Origin: Candidatus Woesearchaeota archaeon
GTDB lineage: Archaea; Nanobdellota; Nanobdellia; Woesearchaeales; JACPBV01
Reading direction: 5' to 3'
Length of the DNA stretch: 64,000 nucleotides
NCBI GenBank assembly: GCA_019323195.1
Contig: JAHWHQ010000036.1
Location: 2,952-66,951 of the forward strand
Part shown: piece by piece, positions 16,388 through 47,725 of the stretch
Position numbering within the stretch: position 1 is the first letter of the stretch
Layout: each line of letters starts with the position of its first letter
Program-made: the position numbers and the translations under genes
The notes under the pieces: model-generated
Seen by the model: the letters and a program-made list of their open reading frames with translations, nothing else
Told to the model about the DNA's origin: nothing
The model's database searches: none

Positions 16388-16446
16388 GGGTTTTTTCTTT
16401 TAGTCTGGAAATTGTTTTTTGACTGAAGGGTTTTCTTTTTATGGGA

Positions 16447-16475
16447 CTACATACTAAGTATGTAGTAGTATGTAG
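16447..16475. promoter_or_regulatory. Palindromic operator-like element ctacatact-a-agtatgtag plus a third half-site agtatgtag
   Basis: A perfect 9-bp inverted repeat with an extra direct half-site, about 120 bp upstream of the RHH gene. A second perfect palindrome cttagttaactaag (16559-16572) and a TATA-like tatatata (about 16530) lie closer to the start. Confidence 0.5.
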
Positions 16476-16590
16476 TTTAAAAGGGAAATCTTTATATACC
16501 AGTTATTTCAGGAATAACTTATATACTTAAATATATATAACTAACCGAACTTATTAAGCTTAGTTAACTAAGTTACTTGGATTGTTCCAA

Positions 16591-16725
16591 ATGACAAGGG
16601 TAAACGTAGAGATCGACAATGAGCTGCACAAGAAAGCTAAGCTGAACGCTCTTCTTAAGAACCAGACTTTAATCGAGTATATTCATGAGGCTCTGAGGGA
16701 AAAGGTAAAGAAAGATGGTAAATAA
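16591..16725 (+). CDS. Ribbon-helix-helix (CopG/Arc/VapB-like) small DNA-binding protein, 44 aa
   Basis: MTRVNVEIDNELHKKAKLNALLKNQTLIEYIHEALREKVKKDGK. The layout is a beta-strand (RVNVEID), helix, helix, which is typical of RHH. It is not in the ORF track because it is under 60 aa. Its last 11 nt overlap the ATG of the giant gene at 16715. Confidence 0.6.
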   Translation: MTRVNVEIDNELHKKAKLNALLKNQTLIEYIHEALREKVKKDGK

Positions 16726-19700
16726 GAAAATATTTGTCTTTTTGGTCATGGCTGTTTTTTTGGCTAGTCTGGTCAGGTCCATAGTTCTTTTACCGGAAAA
16801 CCCATTATATGGTTGTAAATTAGATGTACAATATTCAGATGGGGGCCAAATAGACACTAACCCCACCCAGCCATGGAGCGGAGGGGTCAGGTTTGATGGC
16901 AGCAGCAAAAGGATATCCTTTGTAGGCTATGTAAACGGGGACGATGCGATTGATTTGAAGGTGACGTGTTCCGACCCAGGATTACAATCATGCATTTTGA
17001 GAGCAAGAGACGCAGACTCGGTGATATGGAAGTCTGGCAGGTTTGATGGAACCCCTGTAAGGATATCTTTTACAGGCCCGGTGGGCAGCGGTGATGCTAT
17101 TGAGGTTAAGATATACTGCCCCTCTCCTGGGGTGAGAAACAATTGTAAGCTATATGGCAGATACTCAGATTTAGGTCAAATAGATTCTAAGTCGTGGGGG
17201 GATGGGGTTAAGTTCGATAACTCACCATTGGAGATATCGTTTACAGGGGTGGTTAGTAATGATGATGATATAGACCTGAAGATCGAATGCGACTGCCCAT
17301 GCCCTTTTGGCTTGTGTTGTGATAACTGCCAGTTCAGGGATGCGGGAGAGGTATGCGGGAATGTTCCAAGTGATTGTTTGAGTAAGACAGGGGCTGACTA
17401 TTGTTGCGATAAACCAGAGGTATGTGATGGGGCAACGCCTGGCTGCCCTCCAGATAACGATGTCCAAGACAGCAACTATGTTTGCAGGAACCCAAAGGCA
17501 TGTACCGAGCCGGAATGCTGCGACTTACCTGAAAAATGTGACGGCTTAACTAAATACTGCCCTACAGAAGATAAAGTTAAGGATGAAGGGGTACTTTGCA
17601 AGACAGATACAAGGGCATGCTATGATGATGGGTATTGTGACGGGGAATTCCCTGTTTGCTTGCCAAACCCTGCCCCCAAGGATACTCCATGCACTACCGA
17701 CGATGGCAAATCAGGCTATTGCGACCTTGATGGGAACTGTAATGCCGGATGCAGCTCTGATCAGACCTCTCTTTCAAGAAAATCTTCAATGACCGGCTCT
17801 TCAGACACAAATGATATCCCGCAAGATCTCAACGATCAGGCGTGCTGTGACAGTGCAGAGATGTGCGTATATGCCGGAGCGTGTTATCTTGGCACTTCAG
17901 ATAGGTCATATTATCTAAATGCCCTGGGCATTAATGATGTTATCTGCAGATCGAATACCTGGCATGACTGCGATTACAAGGAGGACTATTGTACTGGCTG
18001 GGGTGTGTGCAGTATAGGTATTGGGCGCTGGATAAAAAACGGGGAGGAACAAACAATAGGGGAGTATAATACAGCCTATCCCAATCCAACAGAGAAGTGC
18101 TGCGGTGATGATGCCGGGGAGAAATACGTATCAAGAAATGTTGTAGGTTCAGACTCTGACATTCCGGCAGATGCAGATGACGTGGCCTGTTGTTCCAGCA
18201 GCACTGATTGCGTCTATGACGGCAAGTGCTATGATGCTGGCTCTACAGACCCTGGCAGTTACTGCAAGGGACAAAAGTGGAATGGAGGGGATGATTTACC
18301 AGAGGCATGCCCTCTCTTGGGCGGAACATGGGATGCAGCCATGGCGGCGGGTAGCCAATGCTGCGGCGATGATGAAGGAGAGACGCCAAAATCCCGGGAG
18401 GGGGATTATGCTGACCTTAATGATGAAGCCTGCTGCGGTAGCGATGAATGCGTCCTTAGTGGGGGATGTAAGCCGTATCTTGCTACCTATGACCTGAGCA
18501 GCTACAGCGTTTTAGACGATTCTGCTGACCTAGAGGTGTGCATGTCATCCGGGTGGAAGGATCCAGATTTTAGCCAGGAAGCGTGCCAGGCCGTAAATAA
18601 CAAAAGAACAGATGGAGGGGGAAACTTAATCCCTACATTATGGATGGCGGGGGGGGAGTGCGGATATGGCACTGGGCAATGTGATGATGCCCCTAATTCC
18701 CCAAATAAGATGAATTTCTGCTGCGGTGACGACCCTTGGGAGCTTTTTAACCCTGCCAGGAGCGGAACTAAGTGTTTTATCCACCCGGATTACGGGTGTT
18801 CCCATGATGGTGTGGACTATATATATAAGCCGATGGTAAATGGGAAGTATACTGATGATGACTGCTGTAAAGGCACATGCCCTGAAGGGGGATGTTGCGA
18901 TAAGAACTGCAATTATCTGCCTGATACCCATATATGCAGGGAAGCGGCGTCAGAATGTGATGTGGCTGAAAAATGCACAGGAACGAGCCCAGACTGCCCA
19001 GACAACGCCTTTGAACCAATCGGTACAGAACCTCCTTGCGGGAAGTGCGACGGGGCAGGGAACTGCGGGGAATGCCTTCCTACCGAGTTTAATAACCACC
19101 GAGAATCAATAAAACCTGCTATACCTATAGATGATAAATATCCTTATTTCCCAACACTTACTACAGACAAGGCATGCTGCTCAGAAATAGATGATTGCGT
19201 GTATGACGGCAAGTGCTATGCCAGCAACAGCGGCAGGCCAGAGGGCAGCCCCCCTGTTGATATTATGGGCGCTGTCTGTTATATCCCTGAATCACAAAAG
19301 TGCCCCACCTGCATAAGGGGCGGAACATGGTATGACTGCGACAATGACCAGAGCTTTTGCACGAATAATGAGTGGGGATGTTCCCTGAACTGGGTGGCCA
19401 GCGGGGAGGCTGGTGTCGGGGAGTACGGCGCTGAGGGAACGATGGAATGCTGCGGGGATGATTTTGATACTGACGGCAACCCCCAGGAGTTCTTTAAGGT
19501 AATCAAGCTGGGCAGCGATTCTACACTTTCGGTTTCAGGAACAGACAAGGCATGCTGCAATTCAGGCAATGACTGCGTTGAGAATTATGAATGCTATGAT
19601 CCAGGAAGGCTGCATAAGGGTGGGAAGGATTACTGCAATGCAACAGGAGGATGGGAGGGAGGGGATAATTCAGAGGCTGCATGCACGGCAATAACAAAAG

Positions 19701-22700
19701 CTGCAGGAAGGTGGGATATAGACTTTGAATCTTCCGTTGCTGCAACAGGACCGTGCTGCGGTGATGATGATGCTACAGAGAGGTTTGTTACCTGTGACAT
19801 TGATGATTTTTGCAGCGATACAGCAAAAACAGCGTGCTGCGACAATACGCATGACTGCGTATTTGACGGGGTATGCCATCCTGCCTATGATGCCAGCAAT
19901 CCAAAGCCGGAATCTTTCCTTGATATGAAGAATGGCCTTCCTCTATGGGACACATCTTCTGACATGGAGGTCTGCATCGATGATCCGGTGGCAGGGAGGC
20001 TGGGTTGGAAAGACCCTGATGATTATGATGGTGCCTGCTCTGCCGTGAACAACAGGCCGAACCCTACTAGGTGGATGTCCGGGGCAGATACAAGCTGCGG
20101 CCTTGAGAGGGAAGGGAGGGTATGCGATGATTCTCCCAGCGGGCTAAACACGGCAGATTTCTGCTGCGGCGATGATGAGGGGGAGGTTTTTAGGGAAGAG
20201 GAAGGTTTTGAGAATGCGTGCCTTGTCAAGGGCGGATGCTATTTTGAGGGACAACACTTCCTGGACGGGGAATATTCAGGGGATAATTACTGCCAGAACG
20301 GTGAGGTCATACAGAGAACGAAGCTTATTGCCCTACAGCTGTTGGACATAGCAAACAAGGAAAGCCCTTCGCATTATACATTATTCTGCGACAGCTATGA
20401 GAATGCCCTTAACTATTATAGCTACGACCTTAATCCGCCGTATTCAACTTCAGCCTTTCCTTATACAGATAAAATCAATAATGTATGCCTCTTAAGGCTA
20501 AAAGACCAGGTAATATTCGGGACATCCTTAGATGACCCTATAGACGAAGGGGCTTACCCTTTCATTAACGTACTAAAGGATATAAAAAGCAATCTTGACT
20601 GCAGCAGCGTGCAAGGTGTAGGGGACTGGCAGTTCCATAGCTGCAATACTCTTAAGGTATGGTATAATGATAAGATACAGAGCGTAATATACAGCAATAA
20701 GGACCTAAACCTTGGGAACCTTGATTTTGATGAGAAGTTCTTATTGTTCCTGAAGAACCCGTTCCAGAACATATTTGATTCAATTATCAGCTTATTTGGG
20801 GAGTCGAAGGTTGATCCCGAGGATTATGGGTTCCTGAAAGACAGCAAGAAGTTTTCAAGGATATACCTTGACAGGACAGGGGTCAAGTCCATAAAAGGTG
20901 TTATAGAGGATGATGCAGAAGCAGGAGAGTACCTTTCTATAGCCTATAACTGCTATACTGATGATATATGCGAGACAGTAGAGGCTGCGCAGGAGAGATT
21001 TGGGGCCAAAGGGATATTTGGAGGGGATGAGATCAGCTGCAGTTATAAGCCGGATATCTCCACTTATTATGTTGCAAGCAGATCACCTACCCGGCTGGAC
21101 ATGTGGCCGCAGCTGACAGCAGGCTTGAGGACGAAGAATGTAAAGCTTCCTACAGGGCTTACAATAACCCCGCGCATAAAGGCGCCGGAAAAGGCTATAA
21201 AGGGCTATCCTGTAGAGTTCCAGGCAGATGTTGAGGGGGCCTGCATCTCACCCCCTTATACCTATTCCTGGACTTTTGGGGATGCAGGAACAGGCTCAGG
21301 AGAGGCGCCAACACATGCCTATACTGCAACAGGCAGCTATATTGTGGGCTTAACAGTTGAGGAACAGAAAGATGCTTCAAACCATGGAAGCGGCACCCAT
21401 AGCCTGGAGGTTATTGACATTAAAGATTGTGAAATAAGGGATAAATCAGTTGGATGTGATGCTGGAGCCCTTGAGCAGTGCATCATGTCATTATCCGCAG
21501 GGGCAGATGCTACAGCAGACGAGGCATGCGACAGCGTCTCGCCATACGAGCTTTGCTGCCAGAATATATTCCAGGTGGATACTGCCCCGGGGGGGTGCGG
21601 GGAGGCGGGGCTTATCTCATTGTCACAGACCTTTAACGGCAGGGCAGACGGGTATAACCAGGGGACGTTTGCAAACGACATCTGCATAAGGTCGGCTGTG
21701 GAGGGGATGAAGGCCAGCTGCAGGCCTGTACTTAAAGGAGATACTTTCAATAACCTTGGTGGCGAGGTGTGCGTCCTTTCATTATCTGCTTTTAAGGGGG
21801 GCGTAATCTCGGGATGCGACCCCAATGCTGAAGTGAATATCTACTGCAGGATTATCGATGAGGCTGTAAATGTTGAAAACTGTGAGAACGGCGAGAATGA
21901 TGATGGAAGCGGCCTTGATGACTGCGAGAACGCGGCCTACTGCCCGACAGGGACATTCTGCAATGCGGAGCATACGCAAAGATGCACAAAAGACGCATCT
22001 GACAATCGCCTGTGTGAATGCATCGATAATGATGGTGACGGCTATGGCGCTTGCGCTGGTGCGGATTGTAATGATCCTGCTACATGTGACTGCAATGATG
22101 GTGATCCCTCAATACATCCAGGTGCAGCTGAAACCTGCGATAATGTAGATGAGGACTGTGACAAGCTAGTTGATGAGGGTGTAACAAAACAAGAGGCATG
22201 CAGTGTCGGCTGTCCTGGAAACAAATGCACTTTTACATGCTCAGCAGGGGCGTGGACTGAAGACCTTTCTAACGCTTATAATGGGGCTACTCTAGAGGTG
22301 TGTGATGCTTTGGATAATGACTGCGACGGGGAGATTAATGAGGGTGTAACAAGAATGGTTTTCTGCGGCGACTATGGAGTCTGCAAACTCCAAAGCCATA
22401 CTCAAACATGCAACATAGCTGGTGAATGGGTTCCTGCTACCTGTGATACAACTACAATCCCTAATTATAACACTAATGATGATTGTAGTGATACCTTAGA
22501 TAATGACTGCGATAATTCTGTAAATGAGGATGGGTTGGAGACATTCTATAAAGATGGCGATTCAGACGGGTATGGGCTGCAGACAGATTTACAGGAGGCA
22601 TGTGCAGGTTCGCTGCCTGCTGGCTATGTCGCTTCTAAACCCGACGGTTATGACTGTAATGATGGCGATTGGAGGATTAATCCTGGGAAGACCGAGACCT

Positions 22701-25021: not shown

Positions 25022-25056
25022 TGCTGAAATATTTAAACACATTGATGTTTTTATTG

Positions 25057-25077
25057 AAAATCCCTAATGGGATTTTT
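25057..25077 (+). terminator. Hairpin aaaatccc-taat-gggatttt followed by a T-run, 36 nt after the giant-gene stop (possible terminator or attenuator)
   Basis: An 8-bp perfect stem, 4-nt loop and 3' U-tract read directly. Archaeal termination normally needs only T-tracts, so the functional role is inferred. Confidence 0.4.
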
Positions 25078-25174
25078 AATCCCTTAAAGGCAAACGACCT
25101 TAACTTTAGTGAAGTGATTTCCTTAAGCACGAACCATCACTGAGCCGGATAAAGAACCTTTGCAATAAAAACCT

Positions 25175-26653: not shown

Positions 26654-26730
26654 TATTTTAATTGCTCAAGAAGGCGTTTGATTATTCTTGATTGTTGACA
26701 TTTAGAAATTGCCCCAAAACCAAAAATCTT

Positions 26731-26753
26731 AAATACATACTTAATATGTATTT
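26731..26753. promoter_or_regulatory. Palindromic operator-like element aaatacata-cttaa-tatgtattt
   Basis: A perfect 9-bp inverted repeat. Its core ACATACT..(A)GTATGT is related to the palindrome at 16447-16465. It lies about 160 bp upstream of the second RHH gene. Confidence 0.45.
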
Positions 26754-26912
26754 ATCTTATTATTTCATACTAAGTAATCCTTATTGCTGGTGACCTTTAA
26801 AATCGTAACTTTTAAATATTACTTACTAAATAATACAACATAATCTAGGGTATGCAATAGTAATCACCACAAGGGCTAAGATCGTTTTGGGGAAAATGTA
26901 AGAGGAGAGAGA

Positions 26913-27053
26913 GTGAAAGAGAGGATTACGATTACTATTGATAAGGAACTTCTTAATTGGTTAGATAAGAAAATAGATGAAAAGGTTTTTGCAAACAGGT
27001 CTCACGGCCTAGAGTTTCTTATAAAACGGAGGATGGAGGGGGAGAATGAATAA
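26913..27053 (+). CDS. Ribbon-helix-helix (CopG-family) small DNA-binding protein, about 46 aa, GTG start
   Basis: VKERITITIDKELLNWLDKKIDEKVFANRSHGLEFLIKRRMEGENE. It shows the CopG-type signature (RITITIDxELxxxLD...NRSxxIxxLI). The stop TAA at 27051-27053 overlaps the ATG of the giant gene at 27046 (sequence gagAATGAATAAgg). The start codon is uncertain and could be GTG at 26913. Confidence 0.55.
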   Translation: MKERITITIDKELLNWLDKKIDEKVFANRSHGLEFLIKRRMEGENE

Positions 27054-36000: not shown

Positions 36001-39000
36001 ATATTATCTTCAGGGCCGGGAGGGGTGCTCAATGACAATACCCCTACCTTATGGGCAAAGCTCAACAAGGATGCAGAATGCACATTTGAGGAAATGCAGC
36101 CGACATCACATACAACTATAAGAGAGGGAGGAAGGATATATTATCTCTATTACCATGATGTTGCCAGCCAGCTGGATGAAGGGCTGCATGAGTATAAGGT
36201 TAGGTGCTTTAATGTAAAGGCAGTTTATGATGATATCTCCTTTACCTTAGATACAGAACCTCCAGAAAAACCGGAGATAACCTCTCCTGCAGATGACAGC
36301 CTTGCAGGGGACAGCCTAACAGTGACAGGAACAACCGATGATGATGCAAGAAAGGTTTTCTTTTATGTTGACAATGCTTATCTTGGGTATGCGGATGTTG
36401 ATGGCCAAGGCTTTGCAAAAACATTGGACTTATCTGGCTTTGATGACGGGGATCTAGTCATCATGGTTAATGCAGAGGATGAATTCCGGCAGAATGGAAG
36501 GAGCGGGGAGGATTCTGTTACGGTTGTTAAGGATACAGTCTCGGAGCAGCCAAGACTGGATGAACTTCCACAATATACTAATAGCGGTTTTGCTGAAGTT
36601 TTAGGAAGCGCTGAGCCAGGTTCTACTGTCTACTTTTATAGGTTTTACCTTCCAGGGCAGGAAGGAGATTCTGTTGCAACTACAACCGCAACTTCGGATG
36701 TTGATGGCCCATTTTCATCCTCCCTTAGCTTAAATGAAGGAAGCAATTATATCTATGCCAGAGCAACAGACACAATGGGCAATCCATTAAGCGAAAGCTC
36801 GAATGAGGTATTTATGATCTATGATGCTCAAAGCCCTTCATTCACCGGCATGAGCCCTGCTGATGGAGACACTGGCGTTTATGGAGAGAAGCTGATAATT
36901 AGCGTTTTGGTTTCTGATAATTACGAAATTAATGAAGACAGCGTAAGCTTCCTTATAGACAACAATGAGGCTGTATATGAAAAGGCTCATGAGCAGGGGG
37001 GGATAAGGCTAACTGTGGAGGCTGACCTTGATGATGGCCAGCATACCGCTTATGTAAGCGCTGAGGATGCTTCCGGCATCCTTGGGTATGCGGAATGGAG
37101 CTTTGATACTTTTATCCCTGTCTCATGCCTTTCCTGGGCCTGTGACAAGGAGGCAGACAGGTGGTGCGACAATGGCGCCTGGAACACCGCAGATTACTGC
37201 ACATATTGCGGCATAGAGGATTCTGATTGTGAATCTGAAGTTACATGCGCAGCTGACGAGTGCGATACATCAGCTAACGAATGGTGCGACAGCGGGGTAT
37301 GGAACACCGCAGATTACTGCATACACTGTGGCATGGAGGATTACCAATGCGGCGCTTTGCCTCCAAACTTAATAGGATTTTCAATTAACGGGGATGCAGC
37401 AGAACAGGGGGATTATGCAGATAATTTAGAGATAGAGGCAGGGTTTGAATATGGCAGGGAGGCTGTCCTGGAGGATATCCAGCTTGATGATCAGACCATA
37501 GCCAACTGGCAGGACATTTATGAGACTGAAGACAACATAAGGTTCTATTATGACCTTGGAAGCCTGCAGGAAGGTGGGCCTTATAAGCTTACTATCAGGG
37601 CCTCTAATGAAGGGTTTGCCCAGAGCACAGATTCCCTTCTGTTTTATGTCGATACCTCAGCCCCTACAATAGACATAGATGATTCAATTGATACCTTAGT
37701 CAGCAGCCCTTATGTCCCTATCTACGGGACTTATGCAGAACCTAATCTCAGGCATATTAAGCTGAACAATATCCTGTTAGATAAGGCAGATATAGGGATA
37801 GGCAGCTTCAGCAGGAACCTTAACCTCCCTGTTGATGCTGTGACTGATGTCCAGGCCGTCATTGAGGATAAGGCAGGAAATACAGGGCAGGATAGCATCT
37901 CTATAGAGGTCAGGACAGGAGAACTTCTATTGGAGATAGAAGAGCTGCCTGCAATTACAAAAGAGGATTCTTTCACTTTGGAAGGAACGACCATGCCTGA
38001 TATTGATGTTGAAATAGATGTCAATGGAGATGAAATTCTAACTCTTAATTCTGACAGCAACGGGGACTTTTCACAGCAGCTGGATATGGATAACGGGCTG
38101 CATGACGGGAATAACATGATCATCGTAACGGCAGAGGATGGTGCAGGAAGAACAGCATCTGTAAAAAAATATGTGCATATAGACAGGGAAGGGCCTGCCA
38201 TAATATCAAGAAACCCTGATGCTGGCGAGCAGGGTGATTTCAGCAGGATAACCCTTACACTAGAGGATATAAGCGGGATAGCAGAGGATTCTGTCGTCCT
38301 GAAGCTGGACGGTGAAACAGTTCAACATAATTTCAATGCCCTCATAGGGAGCCTTTCATATGGCATCTCTTCCCTGGAGAAAGGAAGCCATACCCTTGAG
38401 ATAAGCTCGGAAGATAACCTTGGCAATTCGATGAGCAGCTCATGGGATTTTACGATAAACAGGGGTGCTCCGCTTATTGTTATGGTATCTCCTGCAACTG
38501 ATTTTGTGGATGAGCTGCAGCCTGTCTTTGAGCTTGAGATAGATAACTATGATTCTGTTGAGCAGCCAACTTTAGTTGACTCTGATGAGAATGCTGTTGA
38601 TTTAATCTTATTGTCTAAAGACCCATTCAGGTACATGAGTGCCGCTTTGTTGGATGATGGCCAGACATATAAATTCTGGATAAAGGCTGCAAAAGAAGGG
38701 AATGTTGCTGAGCTGAATAAGTATATCACAGTGGATACTACCCTGCCCGAGATAAGGATCGACAGGAAAGCCCTTCCTGATGCTACAGGAAAAGAGATTG
38801 TTGATGTGGAAGGGACGTTTGCAGAGGATAATCTTGAAATAATAACAGTAAACGGCATTGAGGTTTCCCCGCTTGACATGGCACGGGGGAGGTTTATTGT
38901 AAGGGATGTTCCTTTGGGCGAGACAACTACAGAGATAAGTGCGGTCATAAGGGATAAGGCAGGGAATGAAGGGAGTGACACTACCTATGTAGAGGTGGAC

Positions 39001-41892
39001 AGGGATGCCCCTCCTCTTACGATAAGCAGCCCTGCAGAAGGGCAGGTGTTCGGAGACAGCACCCTTATAGTATCTGGCGAGACAGAGCCTGATGCTTTAC
39101 TTTCTATCAACGGCTATTATTACAGCAAATCTGCCGTTTTAGATGACGGGTCATTCACTGTTAAGTATACTATGGCGCCAGGAGATAATGCCCTTCTTAT
39201 TACTGCTTTGGACAAGGCAGGCAATGTCGGATCTGAATTGTTAAATGCCTATTATGATGTTGTATCTCCTGAGATAACGGCTATCAAGCCGGATAAGAAT
39301 ATGAACAAGGCTCCTGTTGAGATCAGGGCAAATCTTAAGGACAGGTCGCAGATAACTAGGGTTGCTATATCTATATCTGATGATAATGGTTATTATTATA
39401 ATTATATCCTGCCTCATGATGAATTAGAATCAAGCCAGGAAAGCCTTTTATACCTATATTCCCCTCCAGAGGATGATACCTATACGATAACAATAACAGC
39501 TGAGGATGAATTCGGAAACAGGAACAGTAAGAGCAAAGAATTCCTTTTTGATACTGACATACCTTCAGAGCCGGCTTTTAACCTTAATGGGATGGTAATA
39601 AGCGATGATTCTCCGCAGCTCATATTCCAGTTCGAGGAAGAGGTCAACGAGCCTTCTTTGAGCATAAGCGCATCCCTTGAAAGCTCACCAGACCATAAAC
39701 AGTTCGTGTATTCAACAAGCGTGCTTACCGACGGGATATACCCTTTAGAGATAACGGCCTCTAAGACTGTAGGGAAAGGCTCGGAAGCAAGCTATTCTTT
39801 TGAGTTTACAGTCGATACAACCCCTCCTGTGATTACAATAGACGATTCTGTGCCTGACTTTGTTGGCCTTCCGCCCTTGGTTGATATAAGCGGTGACTGC
39901 TCTGACGCTAACCTGGAGGGAATAGGCTTATCTGTTGACGACGATTCAATATATGTCAACTGCGAGGATGGAAGATACCTGGCTGAGGGTGTTTCACTTG
40001 GATCAGATAAGGGTATTGATGATGGGGATAAGCAGATAATTGTCATGGCTTTGGACAAGGCAGGAAATACCAATTCTGCCTCTAAGGTGATAGAGCTGGA
40101 TACAGGATACCCTGATATTGAGATAACCGGAATAACCAATAATGATGATATAAAATTTGTTTCTGAGATTGATACTTATAAGACAAATGAGGAATCACTT
40201 ACTATCCTGGGGACATACCAGGACAGCAATTTTGATACGATAGTTGTAGAAGTCAACGGCATAGTGCTCGATTACCCCAGCCTTACGCTGGATGAGGCCT
40301 TAGGAACATTTGAGCTTGATCTAGAGCTGGATGGAGATGACGGAGAGGAGTTCGAGAATAATATAGTCCTGACAGCAAGGGACAGCTCAGGGCTGGAGGG
40401 CATGGCAGACATTACAATAATAAAGGACATGAAAGGGCCTTCTATAGCAGAGTTTGAGCCCGCTACCAGGGTTGTGGATAATCAAATGCCCTTAATAACT
40501 ATAACCACCAACGAGTATGCAAGTATGTGTACATTAACTTACATTACTGATGTAAACTTCTTAAAAACAGAGCCATTTAACATGGTGGAGGACAATACCA
40601 AGTTTTCTGTCCAGATACCTGTCAATCTTAAGGATATAACAGAAGCACAAAACCTGGACATAACCTGTCTTGACGCTTTTTCAAATGTGGGAAAAGAGAC
40701 CATCCCCCTGACAGTTGACCTTTTAGACCCTTCGATAGACAGTTTTGATCTTTTCTATACTATGAAGATACCATGGGAGACCACTTCTGACTACAAGAAA
40801 TATCTTATCAAGGGACTGAATTCTCTTGGAGGGACAGCAGCAAGCATAGCCCTGAACGTCAAGCCTAGCGAAGATGCAAGATGCGCCTATTCCGGCTCAG
40901 AGGCCGGCTATTTTAATAATCATGAATATGCCTCAGGCCTGATGCTCTCAGACAGCACACATACACTGGACGACGGAACAGAGTATACTTTTAACATAAT
41001 CTGCGAAGACAAGGCAGGAAGGCTGTCCGAGGTAAAGGTTATTGATGTATTGGTGGACAGCGACCACCCTGTCACTGCCCCTTCAATAGACCTGGACTCA
41101 CCTCCAGATTTGGAAGGGCATGTTTTCATTACAAGAAGCCCCACCTTTGAGGGCTCGATAATATCTTTAACACCCGGGACCGATATCACAAGAAGCCAGC
41201 TTATAATCAACGGGACAACCTATGACCTGGCCCTTGATGAGGACGGTATGTTTTCTCAGACTATAAATACGTTGCCTGCTGATGCTGTCTACCCCTTTGT
41301 GATCCAGGCCGATGTCTCGGAAGATGTGCCTTCTTCAGTAATCGAAGGGTGGATCAAAGTGGATACTACAGGGCCAGGCGGCTGCGGGACTGTTGCTGGC
41401 GTCACTTCCTGCACCGGTGAGCCAGCACAATCAACAACACCTGTTACAGGAATTATTTGCGGGGATGACCAATGTGACTACAGGGAGAACTGCGTAGAGG
41501 ACTGCATACTGAGGGTTGACCAATACAGCCTCTTAACCATGTCTTCATTAACCAGAAAGAACCTCATTGACATATACGGCTATCCAGAGACAGAACAGCT
41601 TCCTTTTATCCTGCATTCGGCCTATTATTATTATCCTGATGATACATACCTGCTTGTCGGGATCCATCTATTTGAGTCTTCCAAGGAATCGGCCGGCTTT
41701 TTAGCCGAAACCCTTGAGGAAGAAGGGGCAACATCATATAAGATAGGCACAAATACTGTTTATAGGACTTCAGACTCAATATTCTGGTTAAGCGACAATA
41801 AGATAATAATAATATGGACCTATTACGGATCCTCAGATTATCTTGACCTGGCTTCTGCTTATCTTGCGAGGTATCCAAGCACAACGGTCTAA
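33085..41892 (+). CDS. Giant secreted protein (2935 aa) made of about 25 tandem Ig-like (Big/cadherin-like) domains plus a C-terminal Cys cluster and globular domain
   Basis: Sec signal is MKKRYLALTSFLVLVSLVPFALS. Domain boundaries recur as VDTTAPNL, VDTSAPTIDIDD, VDRDAPPLTISSP, VDTTPPVITIDD and VDTTGPGG. An internal near-identical duplication lies at about 37141-37350. The start is directly adjacent to the upstream gene's stop. Confidence 0.85.
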   Translation: MKKRYLALTSFLVLVSLVPFALSYNWMKSSQGTDITNNPSPTPWVKYYPDNYRPLMGETYIKDKSTNHKIVLGSGFENPVDTYSSDATGSYVKWEYPFSANLPTGKYAFHTKAADLYSNEFEYDMDIIIETVPPTVKPYSNPTEGASGFIFEGNTQTDQIELGSDVTIKAKVEDKDNGVDIKDTVVTLVNVVVSGTAADGTPITPVTYEMEDGNNDGVYGLTIPSPTGGDYMASFTAYDSLSDTVSGTGNINDTVSVSFTVGDTIKPAKPVIWPLPQYTQKGDADNQLTVVGYIGEQGTVDAHVFQPGESILSFSTTAQDGAMPLENIALQEKYLAGGGYYEEDTEIYIPDYDAGKITSGDYLAFYNHQRTNFARYGVASKDNVPGDRTKVVLVQGLEKDVPVNPTSYISVADKPLPPGYFEIGLTLYHGQNKVQLLSYDAAGNFDDIEFSIISDSVKPKGRIISPYDEITNNDKTPVSLELDGTGSDIDPDSIVMDINGPCNMLDLAVGEDLAFEGEIATFEITGKNYCKGKDQYLNGDYTVTLSATDMAGNENTSIEFGFKVDTSASSGPELTIINGNSLELEGTLYTSETMPEIKASFPKDTQVNSYSLKDKTSGTEHQLEYTKLDDKHFTFEVLFPALAEGSYVFEINAKEDRPGAVSTSFSFDIIVDTTAPNLENIIVPSTVEYGSEDVVKLKATDPVGVDSVRIKIGDSYYSLDRYENGLFNISTEDFLPHEPPFTYAILFEAKDLLGNEQLTDHGEIEFTDSTPPEVTVLEPETGYTNKAPNTIKIGTDDPSYCRFSWRGDFLESFVYDFSSSDKLTHSYDIDISTHDDEWDQDPPNTFNYYVECSNIFDLSTGILKMQIIVDTDSLNIISADSAKLSYYSDNSENTITVKTNKPARCRYSDNTDEDYENMDNSMGEEFVTENSVTEEFDNGDHQLFIDCRDKAGNTADNPTSVSFTVDVDEDVSILSSGPGGVLNDNTPTLWAKLNKDAECTFEEMQPTSHTTIREGGRIYYLYYHDVASQLDEGLHEYKVRCFNVKAVYDDISFTLDTEPPEKPEITSPADDSLAGDSLTVTGTTDDDARKVFFYVDNAYLGYADVDGQGFAKTLDLSGFDDGDLVIMVNAEDEFRQNGRSGEDSVTVVKDTVSEQPRLDELPQYTNSGFAEVLGSAEPGSTVYFYRFYLPGQEGDSVATTTATSDVDGPFSSSLSLNEGSNYIYARATDTMGNPLSESSNEVFMIYDAQSPSFTGMSPADGDTGVYGEKLIISVLVSDNYEINEDSVSFLIDNNEAVYEKAHEQGGIRLTVEADLDDGQHTAYVSAEDASGILGYAEWSFDTFIPVSCLSWACDKEADRWCDNGAWNTADYCTYCGIEDSDCESEVTCAADECDTSANEWCDSGVWNTADYCIHCGMEDYQCGALPPNLIGFSINGDAAEQGDYADNLEIEAGFEYGREAVLEDIQLDDQTIANWQDIYETEDNIRFYYDLGSLQEGGPYKLTIRASNEGFAQSTDSLLFYVDTSAPTIDIDDSIDTLVSSPYVPIYGTYAEPNLRHIKLNNILLDKADIGIGSFSRNLNLPVDAVTDVQAVIEDKAGNTGQDSISIEVRTGELLLEIEELPAITKEDSFTLEGTTMPDIDVEIDVNGDEILTLNSDSNGDFSQQLDMDNGLHDGNNMIIVTAEDGAGRTASVKKYVHIDREGPAIISRNPDAGEQGDFSRITLTLEDISGIAEDSVVLKLDGETVQHNFNALIGSLSYGISSLEKGSHTLEISSEDNLGNSMSSSWDFTINRGAPLIVMVSPATDFVDELQPVFELEIDNYDSVEQPTLVDSDENAVDLILLSKDPFRYMSAALLDDGQTYKFWIKAAKEGNVAELNKYITVDTTLPEIRIDRKALPDATGKEIVDVEGTFAEDNLEIITVNGIEVSPLDMARGRFIVRDVPLGETTTEISAVIRDKAGNEGSDTTYVEVDRDAPPLTISSPAEGQVFGDSTLIVSGETEPDALLSINGYYYSKSAVLDDGSFTVKYTMAPGDNALLITALDKAGNVGSELLNAYYDVVSPEITAIKPDKNMNKAPVEIRANLKDRSQITRVAISISDDNGYYYNYILPHDELESSQESLLYLYSPPEDDTYTITITAEDEFGNRNSKSKEFLFDTDIPSEPAFNLNGMVISDDSPQLIFQFEEEVNEPSLSISASLESSPDHKQFVYSTSVLTDGIYPLEITASKTVGKGSEASYSFEFTVDTTPPVITIDDSVPDFVGLPPLVDISGDCSDANLEGIGLSVDDDSIYVNCEDGRYLAEGVSLGSDKGIDDGDKQIIVMALDKAGNTNSASKVIELDTGYPDIEITGITNNDDIKFVSEIDTYKTNEESLTILGTYQDSNFDTIVVEVNGIVLDYPSLTLDEALGTFELDLELDGDDGEEFENNIVLTARDSSGLEGMADITIIKDMKGPSIAEFEPATRVVDNQMPLITITTNEYASMCTLTYITDVNFLKTEPFNMVEDNTKFSVQIPVNLKDITEAQNLDITCLDAFSNVGKETIPLTVDLLDPSIDSFDLFYTMKIPWETTSDYKKYLIKGLNSLGGTAASIALNVKPSEDARCAYSGSEAGYFNNHEYASGLMLSDSTHTLDDGTEYTFNIICEDKAGRLSEVKVIDVLVDSDHPVTAPSIDLDSPPDLEGHVFITRSPTFEGSIISLTPGTDITRSQLIINGTTYDLALDEDGMFSQTINTLPADAVYPFVIQADVSEDVPSSVIEGWIKVDTTGPGGCGTVAGVTSCTGEPAQSTTPVTGIICGDDQCDYRENCVEDCILRVDQYSLLTMSSLTRKNLIDIYGYPETEQLPFILHSAYYYYPDDTYLLVGIHLFESSKESAGFLAETLEEEGATSYKIGTNTVYRTSDSIFWLSDNKIIIIWTYYGSSDYLDLASAYLARYPSTTV

Positions 41893-41901
41893 AACCATAA
41901 A

Positions 41902-44697
41902 ATGAAAAAGGCAATAATCGCAGTGGTCTTGTTTTTACTTGTCTTGTCCATAGCCTATTCCCTGGTTGACCTCAGGCCGGATATTGAGATAACGTTTAGC
42001 GAACTGGTCGAAGAGTCTACGATCAACATCAACCTTACTAACCAGTCAGGGGTCCTTTTCGACCTGGACTTAATAACTTCAGACAACCCTACTTTCGTGT
42101 ATAAGCCGGCAGAAGACCTGAAGGAGGGGTTTTATACTGTAAGGGCCCAGGCAGAGGACCTGTTTGGAATACTAGGGGAGGTTATTGAGGTTAGCTTTTT
42201 GCTGCAGATATCCCCCCTGGATGTAAACATCACAAAACCAAGGTTAGGGGTCACCCCTACCCATGTACTTAACCTTACACTGAAGACAGACAGGGATGCG
42301 GTCTGCAACTACAGTTTTATAGGCTTTGAGGAGCTTTATGAGTTCGATTCTACCGGATCACTTGAGCATGACAAAGAGGAGATCTCCATAGCTGACACTA
42401 CTTACCTTTATATACAGTGCCTTGACGGGTATGGCAAGGTCTACCAGGAGATAAAGCAGCTTTTCCTTGACTTAAATAACCCTTCCATAAGCGTATATGC
42501 AGAGGATGTTACCGAGCCACCGCTTGAGACAACACTTAATGTCAATTCCAATGAGGAGGTGATATGCAGGTTTGACAACGACTCTACGGTTTTTGGGGGG
42601 ATGCAGGAGTTTGACAATTATGATGAGATGGATGAGGATGCTTATGAGCTTAACCCGCAGCAGGTCTTGGACGGGGAACACCTTACTGACGGAAAGCCAC
42701 ATACCTTTTTTGTAATGTGCAGGGATAAGGCCGGGAGGCTGTCCAATGCGGCATCTGCAACCTTTAACGTGGATACTGAACAGCCCGCAGCTGTAACCAT
42801 ACATTACCCTACAGGGCAGCTGTCATCTTCTCTCTTATGGTTCAATGTAAGCACCAATAAAGTCGCTGACTACTGCCAGTACACCAACAGGTCTGATAAG
42901 ACGGGATATATCACGTTCAGCGTCCAGGGAAAGACGCACATAAGCTCAGGGCTGGACCTGCTCCATGACGGGGCATATACCTATCATGTCCGGTGCAGGT
43001 TCCATGATGAATCAATAGGGACATGGTATGTCGAGGCAAGCACCAATTGTGTCATTGACAACACGAAACCACAACTGCCTTATGTCAATATGGACCCTCC
43101 GGCTGCCCTTAAAGACCTCAATATAACAGACAGGACCTATAAGGACTACCAGTTATGCGGGGAATGGGAGGGGGAGGACAACCAGAGCTCTATCTCCCAA
43201 TACGCCTATTATGCCTATTGGGACAGGAGCACGGACATAATGATAGGCAAGGACGTGACATCAGGCACTAGCGACTGCATAGACCTTGACCTTAACGATT
43301 CAGAAAAATATTACTTTAAGGTAAGTGCGCGGAATTCCGTAGGGCTATGGAGCGACAATATGAGCAGCTCACCTATCACGGTTGATGTAAGCCTTACACC
43401 CAAGGGCTGTGATAATGGCCTCAAGGATGGGGATGAGACAGACGAGGACTGCGGAGGAAGCTGCGACAGCTGCTCGAACGGGATGAACTGCATCATCAAT
43501 TCCGACTGCGACAGCAGGTACTGCAATTCAAGCAATAAGTGCGCAAAGCCAAGATGCGATGACGGGATAAGGAACGGTGCAGAAACCAGCACCGACTGCG
43601 GGGGAAACTGCGACAAATGCAGCGTTGGCAAAACATGCAACGAGAATAGGGACTGCAAAAGCAACAACTGCGATAAAAGCACAGGCAAATGCGAGGAGAT
43701 GCTGGACAAGTGCGAGAATAATGAGCTGGATCCAGGAGAGACGGACGAGGACTGCGGAGGGGACTGCCCTGCCTGCGGGATAGGAAAGAGCTGCGATTTT
43801 GATTCTGACTGCATAGAAGGGGCAAAATGCGAGGAAGGGGCCTGCTTACTTGACTCTGACGGGGACGGGATAGTGGACAGCAAGGATAACTGCCCGGACC
43901 TTGCTAATGAGGAGCAGGCGGATGTTGACGGAGATGACCTTGGGGATATGTGCGACCCTGACTCTGACAATGACGAGCTTCCTGACTCTTTTGAGCAGCA
44001 GTATTTTGAGTGCGTCACGTGCGCAAACCCTAACGATGATCCTGATAAGGACGGGCTTATGAATAAGGAGGAATATACCTATAATACAAACCCCATGAGG
44101 AAGGATACGGATGAGGACGGCTATGCTGACAGGGAGGAGATTGACAAAGGGACAGACCCCCTTGACCCACGCTCCCATCCTGGGGGAGGATTCCTTAAAT
44201 CTATGGTGATACTCTCTATCGTTGCTGCTCTTGGTGGAGGGGGGTATTTTGCATATACGAAGCTTGTCGTTAAGGGGAAGCCTTTCATACCTCCAAGGGC
44301 GCCTGCTGCAAGGGGTGCTGTAAGGAAGGAGATCAGAAGGCCGGTTGCACTAAAAGGCCCGGTCCCAAAGCCACCCCTAAAGCCGGAACAGCCCCCTTTG
44401 AAACGCCCGATGCCAAGGGCCCCAATGAAGAAGCCCGTAGCACCTGCAACGATGAAAACTGTCAGGCCTGCACCTATGCTTAAAAAACCCGCAATAGGCA
44501 GGGATCTTGGAGCAGAACCGAAGATAAGGAACAAAGTAAAGGCAAAAGAGGAGGGGAATATCTTCAGCAGGCTGTCTGAGATAGCGGAAAAGGATAAGGT
44601 TAAGCAGATTGAGAAGAAGATGGAATTTTCACACCTGAGCGATAAGGAGCTTAATGACAGGATCAGGAACCTGAAGAAGGAGCTGAAGGTAAAGTAA
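41902..44697 (+). CDS. Surface protein (931 aa) with Ig-like domains, three Cys repeats, thrombospondin-type-3-like Ca-binding repeats, a C-terminal TM anchor and a Pro/Lys-rich cytoplasmic tail
   Basis: Signal is MKKAIIAVVLFLLVLSIAYS. There are three repeats of about 48 aa of form DxDCGGxCxxC...C...C. The TSP3-like region is DSDGDGIVDSKDNCPD...DVDGDDLGDMCDPDSDNDELPD...DPDKDGLMN...DTDEDGYADREEIDKGTDPLDPRS. The TM helix is FLKSMVILSIVAALGGGGYFAY. The tail is PPRAPAARG...PVPKPPLKPEQPPLKRPMPRAP... and ends in a coiled-coil-like segment. Confidence 0.8.
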   Translation: MKKAIIAVVLFLLVLSIAYSLVDLRPDIEITFSELVEESTININLTNQSGVLFDLDLITSDNPTFVYKPAEDLKEGFYTVRAQAEDLFGILGEVIEVSFLLQISPLDVNITKPRLGVTPTHVLNLTLKTDRDAVCNYSFIGFEELYEFDSTGSLEHDKEEISIADTTYLYIQCLDGYGKVYQEIKQLFLDLNNPSISVYAEDVTEPPLETTLNVNSNEEVICRFDNDSTVFGGMQEFDNYDEMDEDAYELNPQQVLDGEHLTDGKPHTFFVMCRDKAGRLSNAASATFNVDTEQPAAVTIHYPTGQLSSSLLWFNVSTNKVADYCQYTNRSDKTGYITFSVQGKTHISSGLDLLHDGAYTYHVRCRFHDESIGTWYVEASTNCVIDNTKPQLPYVNMDPPAALKDLNITDRTYKDYQLCGEWEGEDNQSSISQYAYYAYWDRSTDIMIGKDVTSGTSDCIDLDLNDSEKYYFKVSARNSVGLWSDNMSSSPITVDVSLTPKGCDNGLKDGDETDEDCGGSCDSCSNGMNCIINSDCDSRYCNSSNKCAKPRCDDGIRNGAETSTDCGGNCDKCSVGKTCNENRDCKSNNCDKSTGKCEEMLDKCENNELDPGETDEDCGGDCPACGIGKSCDFDSDCIEGAKCEEGACLLDSDGDGIVDSKDNCPDLANEEQADVDGDDLGDMCDPDSDNDELPDSFEQQYFECVTCANPNDDPDKDGLMNKEEYTYNTNPMRKDTDEDGYADREEIDKGTDPLDPRSHPGGGFLKSMVILSIVAALGGGGYFAYTKLVVKGKPFIPPRAPAARGAVRKEIRRPVALKGPVPKPPLKPEQPPLKRPMPRAPMKKPVAPATMKTVRPAPMLKKPAIGRDLGAEPKIRNKVKAKEEGNIFSRLSEIAEKDKVKQIEKKMEFSHLSDKELNDRIRNLKKELKVK

Positions 44698-44698
44698 A

Positions 44699-45193
44699 AT
44701 GATGGCTAAGAAAGGACAGATACCAGGCCAGATATTTATCTACCTCATCGCTCTTATCTTGTTTTCACTTATCCTGCTCTACGGCTATAACTCAATAAGG
44801 GGGTTCAAGGAAAAGTCCGAGCAGGTGTCCTATATCAAGTTTAAGACAGACCTTACCTCAATGGTGAAAAGGGTTTCGCCGGATTATAACACGCTGAAGA
44901 GGGAGAAGCTCTTTATAGGAGGGGATTATACAGAGGTCTGTTTTGTGCAGAGCTATAAGAAGGAGGATAATTTTGATTTTATAAGGACCCATATAGGAAA
45001 TCTCATAATACAGGACAGTTTTGAGAGCAGGGTGGACAAGAACGTGTTTTTGTTCAAGAAAGGGATTGCGGAGTCCTTTGATGTAGGAAATATAAATGTT
45101 ACTGGCGGTTCTGTCTGCATACCGGTAATAAGCGGCAAGGCAAGGATAGAGTTTAAGGGCATGGGGGACCATGTTTTTATATCTGGCTGGTGA
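44699..45193 (+). CDS. Archaeal type-IV-pilin-like protein (class III signal peptide), 164 aa
   Basis: The N-terminus is MMAKKG|QIPGQIFIYLIALILFSLILLYG, i.e. basic residues, Gly, Gln at +1, then a hydrophobic helix. This is the classical prepilin-peptidase substrate layout. It starts 1 nt after the upstream stop. Confidence 0.6.
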   Translation: MMAKKGQIPGQIFIYLIALILFSLILLYGYNSIRGFKEKSEQVSYIKFKTDLTSMVKRVSPDYNTLKREKLFIGGDYTEVCFVQSYKKEDNFDFIRTHIGNLIIQDSFESRVDKNVFLFKKGIAESFDVGNINVTGGSVCIPVISGKARIEFKGMGDHVFISGW

Positions 45194-45274
45194 ATATTTT
45201 TCTGAGGAAGGCATATTCTTTTTTAGAGCAAAAAATTTATAACCTGTATCCTATTACATGATTAACGTCATAAA

Positions 45275-47682: not shown

Positions 47683-47725
47683 TGGGCAACTAAATGATAC
47701 GTATTATAAATATTTAACTTTTTTA

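What the first reader, a model, noticed from the sequence alone, without database searches (positions are those of the whole stretch)
16591..45193. A 28-kb co-directional surface-protein supercluster makes up about 43% of this window
Five consecutive + strand genes encode 2768, 492, 2012, 2935 and 931 aa, which is 9138 aa of secreted or anchored protein. The last gene in the run encodes a pilin-like protein. Gene junctions overlap or are 0-9 nt apart (TAG-ATG at 33082/33085, a 9-nt spacer at 41893-41901, a 1-nt spacer at 44698). The three giants use different domain sets: one is a Cys-rich module protein with MopE-like and PKD motifs, one has CC-doublets with a CarboxypepD_reg-like domain, and one has about 25 Ig-like repeats. 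The anchored 931-aa protein has TSP3 Ca-binding repeats. For a small-genome archaeon this is a very large investment. It looks like a dedicated adhesion or host-interaction apparatus rather than an S-layer.
Basis: partly seen in the sequence, partly recalled or inferred. Interest (0 to 1): 0.8.

Follow-up and report, generated by a model that had tools for sequence, protein, structure and literature searches.

The report
Woesearchaeal giant adhesin and pilin-like cluster
A 28.6-kb block in a Woesearchaeota (DPANN archaeon) genome holds eight co-directional genes that look like one cell-surface attachment apparatus, kept in the same order in about twenty related genomes; the genes are two small regulators, four very large secreted or anchored proteins and two pilin-like proteins.

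Summary
The ORFs of 2768, 492, 2012, 2935, 931 and 164 aa, their junctions and their domain content are all as described.

1. Two 44-46-aa ribbon-helix-helix genes overlap the starts of the 2768-aa and 2012-aa genes. Each follows a conserved TATA-type promoter and a shared TACATACT palindrome. The block is therefore two regulator-led units, not one five-gene operon.
2. The 492-aa protein, like the 164-aa one, has a prepilin-type N-terminus and a long N-terminal helix. It ends in a cadherin-like domain.
3. The locus is syntenic in about 20 Woesearchaeota/Nanoarchaeota loci, between cdc6/PolD and an MBF1-like gene. In some relatives the 2012 and 2935 proteins, or the 2012 and 931 proteins, are one polypeptide.

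The best reading is a split, membrane-anchored, Ca-binding fibrillar adhesin plus pilin-like tethers. It resembles the pilin and adhesin gene sets of archaeal type IV filament loci. No assembly ATPase, platform protein or peptidase is nearby. Neither pilin-like family, nor the conserved core of the 2768-aa protein, matches any curated family.

Function is inferred, and an S-layer role for the anchored protein is not excluded. I rate it a new variant of a known kind, of moderate interest.

The parts
16446..16475 (.). Palindrome ACTACATACTAAGTATGTAGT plus a third half-site. Candidate regulator-binding site upstream of promoter 1.
   Evidence: TACATACT occurs 7 times in the window against 1.48 expected, and 4 of the 7 lie in the two promoter regions.
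16491..16545 (+). Promoter 1. TTTATATA box at 16491-16498, then the conserved block GAATAACTTATATACTTAAATATATATAACTAAC.
   Evidence: The block is nearly identical upstream of the RHH1 orthologues in L001, L003, L005, L008 and L013. The promoter function is inferred.
16591..16725 (+). RHH1. A 44-aa ribbon-helix-helix-like protein whose stop overlaps the start of the 2768-aa gene by 11 nt.
   Evidence: 73-89% identical in 6 relatives. Pfam HicB RHH E 0.0028. The top PDB profile hits are the RHH antitoxins ParD and VapB, both weak.
16715..25021 (+). G1. A 2768-aa secreted protein with 7.6% Cys: disintegrin-like and CC modules, the conserved core domain, PKD, 5 MopE-like repeats and a Cys-free C-terminal domain.
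   Evidence: An identical 2768-aa protein (P0112) is in the public library.
20264..21136 (+). G1 core domain (residues about 1184-1474). This is the only part of G1 conserved in all related loci, where it lies upstream of the P492 homologue.
   Evidence: One search finds 611 cluster representatives at E<=1e-3, usually with the domain at the C-terminus of 800-1400-aa proteins. There is no Pfam or PDB match.
25181..26653 (+). P492. A modular pilin-like protein with a prepilin-type N-terminus (MKKA|QITVF...), helix 2-73, a middle region with no whole-protein match in the PDB and a C-terminal cadherin-like domain carrying an invariant DPD motif. It is enriched in N-glycosylation sequons.
26730..26754 (.). 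Palindrome TAAATACATACTTAATATGTATTTA. The same box type as at 16446.
   Evidence: Related GTATGTA or ATATGTA boxes recur upstream of RHH2 in L003, L005, L006, L010, L013 and L016.
26811..26912 (+). Promoter 2 (TTTAAATA at 26811-26818) and a conserved leader (TACTTACTAAATAATAC ... GTAATCACCACAAGGGCTAAG).
   Evidence: The leader is conserved in sequence but has no consensus RNA structure.
26913..27053 (+). RHH2. A 46-aa ribbon-helix-helix protein with a GTG start, whose stop overlaps the start of the 2012-aa gene by 8 nt.
   Evidence: 83-93% identical in 8 relatives. NCBIfam NikR N-terminal RHH E 1.3e-6. PDB profile hits NikR 0.029 and CcdA 0.16.
27046..33084 (+). G2. A 2012-aa secreted protein with CC-doublet Cys-rich ends, CarboxypepD_reg and 3 Ig-like repeats. 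The conserved central part is about residues 500-1400.
   Evidence: It is fused to G3 or to A931 in relatives.
33085..41892 (+). G3. A 2935-aa secreted protein with at least 15 Ig-like repeats and a Ca_tandemer adhesin-repeat match. It is variable among relatives and is absent from the compact loci L017 and L021.
   Evidence: (95.5 bits).
41902..44697 (+). A931. The anchored subunit: signal peptide, Ig-like region with 13 sequons, four CGG-type Cys repeats, TSP3 Ca-binding repeats, TM helix 764-790 and a 141-aa K/R/P-rich cytoplasmic tail.
44699..45193 (+). P164. A small pilin-like protein with a prepilin-type N-terminus (MMAKKG|QIPGQIFIY...), helix 6-58 and a beta domain.
   Evidence: pLDDT 93.6. 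It matches no known pilin family or solved structure.
45197..45224 (+). Two T-runs directly after the last stop codon. A likely archaeal transcription stop, ahead of the promoter of the MBF1-like gene.
   Evidence: read directly from the sequence. The function is inferred.

Best explanation
The block encodes a lineage-specific, multi-subunit cell-surface adhesion apparatus of a Woesearchaeota archaeon. It is organised as two regulator-led transcription units.

**Unit 1** is RHH1, G1 and P492. G1 is a Sec-secreted, disulfide-rich giant. P492 is a modular pilin-like protein with a cadherin-like tip domain.

**Unit 2** is RHH2, G2, G3, A931 and P164. G2, G3 and A931 are the pieces of what other relatives make as one chain: a Ca-binding, Ig-repeat fibrillar adhesin held in the membrane by A931's C-terminal helix. 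P164 is a small pilin-like protein.

**Proposed working.**
- A931 anchors the structure and spans the envelope.
- G2 and G3 dock on A931 and extend outward, stiffened by Ca2+ and disulfides.
- The conserved core of G1 docks on P492.
- The two pilin-like proteins either sit in the membrane through their N-terminal helix or are built into a type IV filament whose ATPase, platform protein and peptidase are encoded elsewhere. In the second case they would act like minor pilins with a PilY1-type adhesin.
- The two RHH proteins, probably acting through the shared TACATACT palindromes or the conserved leader boxes, control expression.

**Shown:** gene structure, conservation of order, fusions, domain content, prepilin-type N-termini and the predicted folds.

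**Inferred:** physical assembly, Ca dependence, regulation by the RHH proteins, and adhesion to a host or partner cell.
For: - **Genes and junctions:** intact ORFs with overlapping or abutting junctions and an SD-like site.
- **Synteny:** the order RHH1, G1 core, P492, RHH2, G2, (G3), A931, P164 is kept in L001, L003, L005, L010 and L013. Compact versions occur in L017 and L021-L023. The downstream part is kept in L024-L026. Eighteen GTDB species genomes carry the locus.
- **Fusions:** G2+G3 is one 3055-aa ORF in L010. G2+A931 is one ORF of about 2100 aa, with the TM helix and basic tail, in L017 and L021-L023.
- **Prepilin-type N-termini:** conserved across 35 and 30 family members.
- **AF2 models:** a long N-terminal helix followed by beta domains, pLDDT 84 and 93.6. 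P492 has a cadherin-like C-terminal domain.
- **More pilin-like genes:** the distant compact loci carry 1-3 further pilin-like genes after the P164 homologue.
- **Adhesin-type domains:**
- **Divergence pattern:** RHH genes are 73-93% identical and Cdc6 about 80%, against 25-48% for the surface proteins. This fits fast-evolving contact proteins under conserved control.
- **Regulatory DNA:** conserved promoters and an enriched palindrome.
- **Literature:** archaeal type IV filament loci commonly include large Ig-rich adhesin-like proteins and C-terminally anchored S-layer-like proteins, and the ATPase and platform protein can act in trans (PMC4858521; bioRxiv 10.64898/2026.04.22.720090).
Against: - No type IV filament ATPase, platform protein or prepilin peptidase lies in the 64-kb window or within 10 kb of the locus in relatives.
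- A prepilin-type N-terminus alone also occurs in non-filament proteins.
- There are no expression, localisation or binding data.
- Whether Woesearchaeota attach to hosts at all is disputed (PMC11606122).
- The RHH assignments rest on weak profile hits.
Confidence: 0.55

Rival explanations
1. The locus encodes envelope structure, not an adhesin. A931, with G2 and G3 as its split parts, is the S-layer or S-layer-like glycoprotein of these archaea. The pilin-like proteins and G1 are envelope accessories.
For: - A931 has a Sec signal, Ig-like domains, a C-terminal TM anchor and sequon enrichment: 13 observed against 6.6 expected.
- The locus sits at a fixed core-genome position in all relatives.
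- It lies next to a conserved glycosyltransferase cluster.
- S-layer-like Ig-fold proteins are known in archaeal type IV filament loci.
Against: - No match to any S-layer family in Pfam or NCBIfam.
- G3 is variable among relatives: it shows only weak matches or none in the compact loci L017 and L021-L023, and L025 lacks a G3-sized gene.
- In this genome the giants are strongly depleted in sequons: 2, 4 and 4 observed against 20, 16 and 25 expected.
- Cys contents of 6-8% and MopE, TSP3 and disintegrin-like modules are not typical of lattice-forming proteins.
Confidence: 0.2
2. The genes are a hypervariable island of independent secreted proteins that share a location and regulators but do not assemble. 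Examples would be separate adhesins, binders of polymers or metals, or decoys.
For: - Gene content varies: G1 ranges from 941 to 2768 aa, G3 is variable, and relatives carry extra tail-fibre-like genes.
- The MopE-like motif is a putative metal-binding motif, and CarboxypepD_reg occurs in many unrelated surface proteins.
Against: - The core order is conserved over deep divergence.
- G2+G3 and G2+A931 are fused in relatives.
- The junctions overlap or have no spacer.
- The giants lack anchors of their own, so they need partners to stay on the cell.
Confidence: 0.15
3. The giant ORFs are artefacts of assembly (a chimeric or collapsed repeat assembly), or they are decaying genes.
For: The sequence comes from a metagenome-assembled genome, and repetitive genes are prone to misassembly.
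Against: - All six ORFs are intact, and each has its own signal peptide.
- DNA repeats inside the genes are at most 87% identical over at most 61 nt.
- Independent assemblies from other samples give collinear orthologues of similar length.
- The 2768-aa and 490-aa proteins are present identically in public collections.
Confidence: 0.03

Closest known systems
Pilin and adhesin gene sets of archaeal type IV filament (TFF/T4P) loci (Makarova, Koonin and Albers 2016, PMC4858521; bioRxiv 10.64898/2026.04.22.720090)
   Same: - Several proteins have class III-type N-termini.
- They lie beside a large secreted adhesin-like protein, a large C-terminally anchored Ig-fold 'S-layer-like' protein and Cys-rich components.
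- The pilin sets can be encoded away from the ATPase and platform genes.
   Different: - No ATPase, platform protein or peptidase is in or near the locus.
- The pilin-like families and the G1 core match no described family.
- Two RHH genes are translationally coupled to the giants.
- The adhesin is split into 2-3 chains.
- The locus has a fixed position next to cdc6/PolD.
- No Woesearchaeota locus is described in those surveys.
Bacterial minor-pilin/PilY1 tip complexes and modular pilins (e.g. Streptococcus sanguinis PilB, PDB 7b7p)
   Different: There is no sequence homology and the structural similarity is weak. The PilY1 beta-propeller was not detected. This is an archaeal Sec/class III context.
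Ca2+-dependent giant fibrillar adhesins of bacteria (RTX/BIg-repeat adhesins; NCBIfam Ca_tandemer)
   Same: Long tandem Ig-like repeats and a Ca_tandemer repeat match (95.5 bits). The proteins are acidic and carry Ca-binding TSP3 and MopE-like motifs.
   Different: - No RTX/T1SS signal or retention module.
- Export is by Sec signal peptides.
- Anchoring is by a separate TM subunit.
- There are very Cys-rich modules.
SPEARE-type giant surface proteins of Nanohaloarchaeota (PMC10266531)
   Same: Very large surface proteins of a DPANN archaeon, with Ig-like domains and a membrane anchor, proposed to mediate host contact.
   Different: SPEARE proteins are single chains of 5,000-9,400 aa with a cytoplasmic VirB4-like ATPase domain. 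Here the chains are 931-2935 aa, no ATPase domain is found, and the tail is a basic low-complexity segment.
Giant1-5 cluster of Apilactobacillus kunkeei (PMC12863079)
   Same: Five consecutive genes for very large extracellular proteins, taking several percent of a small genome.
   Different: It is bacterial, has beta-solenoid heads, and has no pilin-like or RHH genes. It is unrelated in sequence and is an analogy only.

Membership tests
Archaeal type IV pilins / class III signal peptide proteins (P492, P164) | N-terminus with a short basic segment, G/A/S at -1, then about 20 hydrophobic residues (FlaFind-type motif) | tested here: met
   KKA|QITVF in P492 and KKG|QIPGQIF in P164. Q at +1 is at least 90% conserved in both families.
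Archaeal type IV pilins / class III signal peptide proteins (P492, P164) | Long N-terminal alpha-helix followed by a beta-rich globular domain | tested here: met
   AF2 models: P492 helix 2-73 (pLDDT 84) and P164 helix 6-58 (pLDDT 93.6). These are predictions, not structures.
Archaeal type IV pilins / class III signal peptide proteins (P492, P164) | Sequence or fold homology to a described pilin or archaellin family | tested here: not met
Archaeal type IV pilins / class III signal peptide proteins (P492, P164) | Genomic link to a TFF ATPase, platform protein and prepilin peptidase | tested here: not met
   None in the 64-kb window or within 10 kb in relatives. The rest of the genome could not be searched.
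Archaeal type IV pilins / class III signal peptide proteins (P492, P164) | Cleavage by a prepilin peptidase and assembly into a filament | not testable with these tools
   Needs biochemistry or imaging.
Ca2+-dependent fibrillar (BIg/RTX-type) adhesins (G3, G2, A931) | Tandem Ig-like beta-sandwich repeats | tested here: met
   Pfam Big_13, Glucodextran_B, Big_3_3, Big_6 and Big_7. The iterated profile finds at least 15 repeats in G3, 3 in G2 and 2 in A931.
Ca2+-dependent fibrillar (BIg/RTX-type) adhesins (G3, G2, A931) | Ca-binding repeat motifs | tested here: met
   NCBIfam Ca_tandemer 95.5 bits (cut-off 50) in G3. TSP3_bac and TSP_3 in A931. Ca binding itself was not tested.
Ca2+-dependent fibrillar (BIg/RTX-type) adhesins (G3, G2, A931) | C-terminal RTX/T1SS secretion signal | tested here: not met
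   No RTX/HemolysinCabind hit. The proteins have N-terminal Sec-type signal peptides.
Archaeal S-layer glycoproteins (A931) | Sec signal plus a C-terminal membrane anchor | tested here: met
   Signal peptide MKKAIIAVVLFLLVLSIAYS and TM helix 764-790.
Archaeal S-layer glycoproteins (A931) | Dense N-glycosylation sequons | tested here: met
   13 observed against 6.6 expected, all extracellular. The partner giants are depleted.
Archaeal S-layer glycoproteins (A931) | Homology to a known S-layer family | tested here: not met
   None in Pfam or NCBIfam.
Archaeal S-layer glycoproteins (A931) | Forms a 2D lattice and is a dominant cell protein | not testable with these tools
   Needs imaging or proteomics.
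SPEARE-type giant proteins of Nanohaloarchaeota | Single chain of more than 5000 aa with a cytoplasmic VirB4-like ATPase domain (PMC10266531) | tested here: not met
   The largest chain is 2935 aa and no ATPase domain is found. The A931 tail is low-complexity and basic.
Ribbon-helix-helix (CopG/MetJ/Arc) DNA-binding proteins (two small ORFs) | A domain of about 45 aa matching RHH profiles | tested here: inconclusive
   RHH2 matches the NikR N-terminal RHH at E 1.3e-6 and MazE at 0.0011, and PDB NikR at 0.029. RHH1 matches Pfam HicB at 0.0028, below cut-off, and PDB ParD at 0.26. All the best hits are RHH proteins, but each is weak.
Ribbon-helix-helix (CopG/MetJ/Arc) DNA-binding proteins (two small ORFs) | Binds a repeated or palindromic operator | not testable with these tools
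   Candidate sites exist at 16446-16475 and 26730-26754. Binding was not tested.

The most novel reading that the evidence does not exclude
The locus may encode a previously undescribed kind of archaeal surface organelle, specific to Woesearchaeales-like DPANN archaea. It would be a giant adhesin fibre that evolved by fission of a single anchored chain into A931, G2 and G3. The fibre would be tethered and presented by two non-canonical pilin-like proteins that work without a type IV filament machine. Two dedicated RHH regulators would switch it on. It would serve as the host- or partner-contact device of a major uncultivated lineage whose mode of attachment is unknown.
Probability: 0.2. Interest if true: 0.7.

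Novelty: new variant of a known kind. Interest (0 to 1): 0.5.

Why it matters
Woesearchaeota are among the most widespread DPANN archaea. None is cultivated, and whether and how they attach to partners is disputed.

This locus gives a concrete, conserved candidate for their contact machinery, with features that can each be tested:
- a membrane anchor;
- subunits that are fused in some relatives;
- two uncharacterised pilin-like families;
- a domain with 611 cluster representatives and no annotation;
- two regulators with candidate binding sites.

It also shows how a giant anchored adhesin can be split into several chains, or fused from them, while gene order is kept.

Tried and rejected
- **Exact look-ups.** The 492-aa (TTG start) and 163-aa proteins were not found in the contig index. 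The source was named only through a database annotation.
- **RNA genes.** No tRNA or Rfam hits in the window.
- **G1 core, word-indexed search.** It found only 3 relatives. The exhaustive search found 611.
- **Pieces of G1, G2, G3 and A931 against Pfam.** Nothing beyond Ig-like hits.
- **PDB sequence searches.** The G1 core and G2 searches and the profile searches of both pilin-like families gave nothing significant.
- **Fold searches.** The afdb50 library was unavailable. The P164 model matched nothing solved.
- **Diversity-generating retroelement.** I looked for template and variable repeats and found no near-identical repeat pairs.
- **Structured RNA in the RHH2 leader.** No consensus pairs.
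- **Fusion hypothesis for G1.** The C-terminal half of G1 is not a fused copy of the extra 550-760-aa gene seen in relatives. That gene is a different, tail-fibre-like family.
- **GTATGTA boxes at 63.7-63.8 kb.** They lie inside a Fic-type coding region, so they are not a third promoter.
- **Sequon depletion as a family trait.** It is not universal among orthologues.


Full report
**1. What is in the sequence**

The window is archaeal. TBP, an intein-bearing MCM, both PolD subunits and Orc1/Cdc6 lie just upstream of the finding. The 164-aa protein is identical to a protein annotated from a Candidatus Woesearchaeota MAG.

The stated domains are recovered: MopE-like x5, PKD and a sub-threshold disintegrin-like hit in the 2768-aa protein (G1); CarboxypepD_reg in the 2012-aa protein (G2); many bacterial Ig-like families in the 2935-aa protein (G3); and TSP3 repeats in the 931-aa protein (A931).

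G3 also matches the NCBIfam Ca2+-stabilised adhesin repeat at 95.5 bits against a cut-off of 50. An iterated repeat profile finds at least 15 Ig-like units in G3, 3 in G2 and 2 in A931.

G1, G2 and G3 have Sec-type signal peptides and no other hydrophobic segment. A931 has a TM helix at 764-790 and a 141-aa K/R/P-rich tail.

**2.

*(a) Two small regulator genes.* Two small ORFs overlap the starts of G1 and G2. They are at 16591-16725 (44 aa, 11-nt overlap) and 26913-27053 (46 aa, GTG start, 8-nt overlap). Both recur at the same positions in relatives and are far better conserved (73-93% identity) than the structural genes (25-48%).

The second ORF matches the NikR N-terminal ribbon-helix-helix domain at E 1.3e-6. 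The first weakly matches the HicB RHH. The best PDB profile hits of both are RHH proteins: NikR and CcdA for one, ParD and VapB for the other.

*(b) Conserved promoters.* Each small gene follows a conserved BRE/TATA-like element and a conserved downstream block. Upstream of both TATA boxes is a palindrome built on TACATACT. This octamer occurs 7 times in the window against 1.5 expected, and 4 of the 7 are in these two regions.

T-runs follow the last stop codon. The block is therefore best read as two units: RHH1-G1-P492 and RHH2-G2-G3-A931-P164.

*(c) A second pilin-like protein.* The 492-aa protein (P492) has a prepilin-type N-terminus, as the 164-aa protein (P164) does. The motif is conserved across 35 and 30 family members.

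**3. Comparative evidence**

Relatives of P492 are few, 41 at E<=1e-3. They occur in 18 GTDB species genomes, named Woesearchaeota, Nanoarchaeota, Nanoarchaeia or Nanobdellota, apart from six TPA assemblies titled 'uncultured Methanosarcinales archaeon'.

The gene order RHH1, G1 core, P492, RHH2, G2, (G3), A931, P164 is kept. In L003 and L005 the locus lies next to cdc6/PolD. In L024-L026 it is followed, as in the window, by an MBF1-like Zn-ribbon/HTH gene, a glycosyltransferase cluster, a RadA-like gene and a carboxyltransferase.

Only residues about 1184-1474 of G1 are universally conserved. This domain has 611 cluster representatives and is usually the C-terminal domain of 800-1400-aa proteins. 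It has no Pfam or PDB match.

Gene fusions link the subunits. In L010, G2 and G3 are one 3055-aa ORF. In L017 and L021-L023, G2 and A931 are one ORF of about 2100 aa that ends in the TM helix and basic tail. The deep-branching compact loci add 1-3 further pilin-like genes after the P164 homologue.

Misassembly is unlikely. Internal DNA repeats are short and diverged, independent assemblies are collinear, and identical proteins are already in public collections.

**4. Interpretation**

I favour (confidence 0.55) a multi-subunit surface adhesion apparatus. A931 is the membrane anchor of a fibrillar, Ca-binding, Ig-repeat adhesin whose outer parts (G2, G3) are separate chains in this genome. G1 is a second, disulfide-rich giant that probably docks by its conserved core on the modular pilin-like P492. 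P164 closes the second unit.

This mirrors the pilin and adhesin sets described for archaeal type IV filament loci, which often include a large secreted adhesin-like protein and a large anchored S-layer-like protein and can work with an ATPase and platform protein encoded in trans (PMC4858521; bioRxiv 10.64898/2026.04.22.720090).

Against membership proper, no ATPase, platform protein or peptidase lies in the window or within 10 kb in relatives. The pilin-like families match no described family or solved pilin. So it works like such a set, but membership is not established.

An S-layer role for A931 remains possible (0.2), and an unassembled island of secreted proteins is less likely (0.15). 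Host interaction is plausible by analogy with other DPANN archaea (PMC6142677; PMC10266531) but is untested here. For Woesearchaeota it is debated.

**5. Novelty and score**

Clusters of giant surface proteins in DPANN archaea, and adhesin-bearing pilin loci in archaea generally, are known kinds. I found the following features in none of the papers I searched:
- this conserved, cdc6/PolD-adjacent, two-RHH architecture;
- the split and fused anchored adhesin;
- the two unannotated pilin-like families;
- the unannotated G1 core domain.

I rate it a new variant of a known kind, with interest 0.5.

Noticed in passing
window 16715-25021, 27046-33084, 33085-41892 versus 25181-26653 and 41902-44697: N-glycosylation sequons (N-X-S/T) are strongly depleted in the three giants: 2, 4 and 4 observed against 19.9, 16.1 and 24.9 expected, and 0 of 2000 shuffles go as low. 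They are enriched in P492 (11 against 4.6) and A931 (13 against 6.6). The P492 enrichment recurs in close relatives. The depletion in the giants does not recur in all orthologues.
   Followed up: partly
window 15051-15574 (tandem repeat at 15327-15472): The AT-rich intergenic region between the divergent cdc6 and Yip1-like genes holds 3.5 copies of a 42-nt tandem repeat at 95% identity. It is a likely replication-origin region lying directly beside the surface-protein locus.
   Followed up: no
window 2739-6164 (intein about 3762-5129): The MCM helicase gene carries an intein with a LAGLIDADG homing-endonuclease domain, inserted in the P-loop domain.
   Followed up: no
window 45275-45790: A 171-aa protein with a Zn-ribbon and a cro/C1-type HTH, resembling archaeal MBF1. 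A gene with the same HTH_3 domain directly follows the P164 homologue in relatives (L024, L025, L026), and in L025 the two genes overlap. It is probably housekeeping and not part of the apparatus.
   Followed up: partly
window 46810-55326: A minus-strand cluster of glycosyltransferases, two PMT_2-type transferases and a UbiA prenyltransferase. GC falls to 0.30 at 50-54 kb against 0.43-0.50 in the giants. A glycosyltransferase cluster also follows the locus in relatives.
   Followed up: partly
L003 8242-9894, L005 6513-8576, L001 7615-9888, L010 8158-8895: Close relatives carry an extra signal-anchored protein between the G1 homologue and P492, with repeated NVGIGTxxPxxKLxVxGNI motifs that look like tail-fibre repeats. 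This gene is absent from the window.
   Followed up: partly
window 61722-62798: A separate 358-aa protein with a lipoprotein-like N-terminus (…IIGCSTC) and TSP3 Ca-binding repeats. It is another small surface protein outside the cluster.
   Followed up: no
window about 63.2-64.0 kb (runs off the end): An ORF with a Fic-type motif (HPFNDGNGRTAR). Two GTATGTA boxes lie inside it and are coding sequence, not regulatory sites.
   Followed up: no
window 56149-58090: A carboxyltransferase gene is followed by an overlapping ORF with a biotinyl-domain motif (AMKMENE). Together with the RadA/KaiC-like gene at 55367-56092, this part of the frame is syntenic in relatives.
   Followed up: no
window 25175 versus 25181: The mechanical ORF for P492 starts at a TTG. 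Database homologues and the conserved MKK(A/S)Q N-terminus indicate the ATG at 25181, giving 490 aa.
   Followed up: yes
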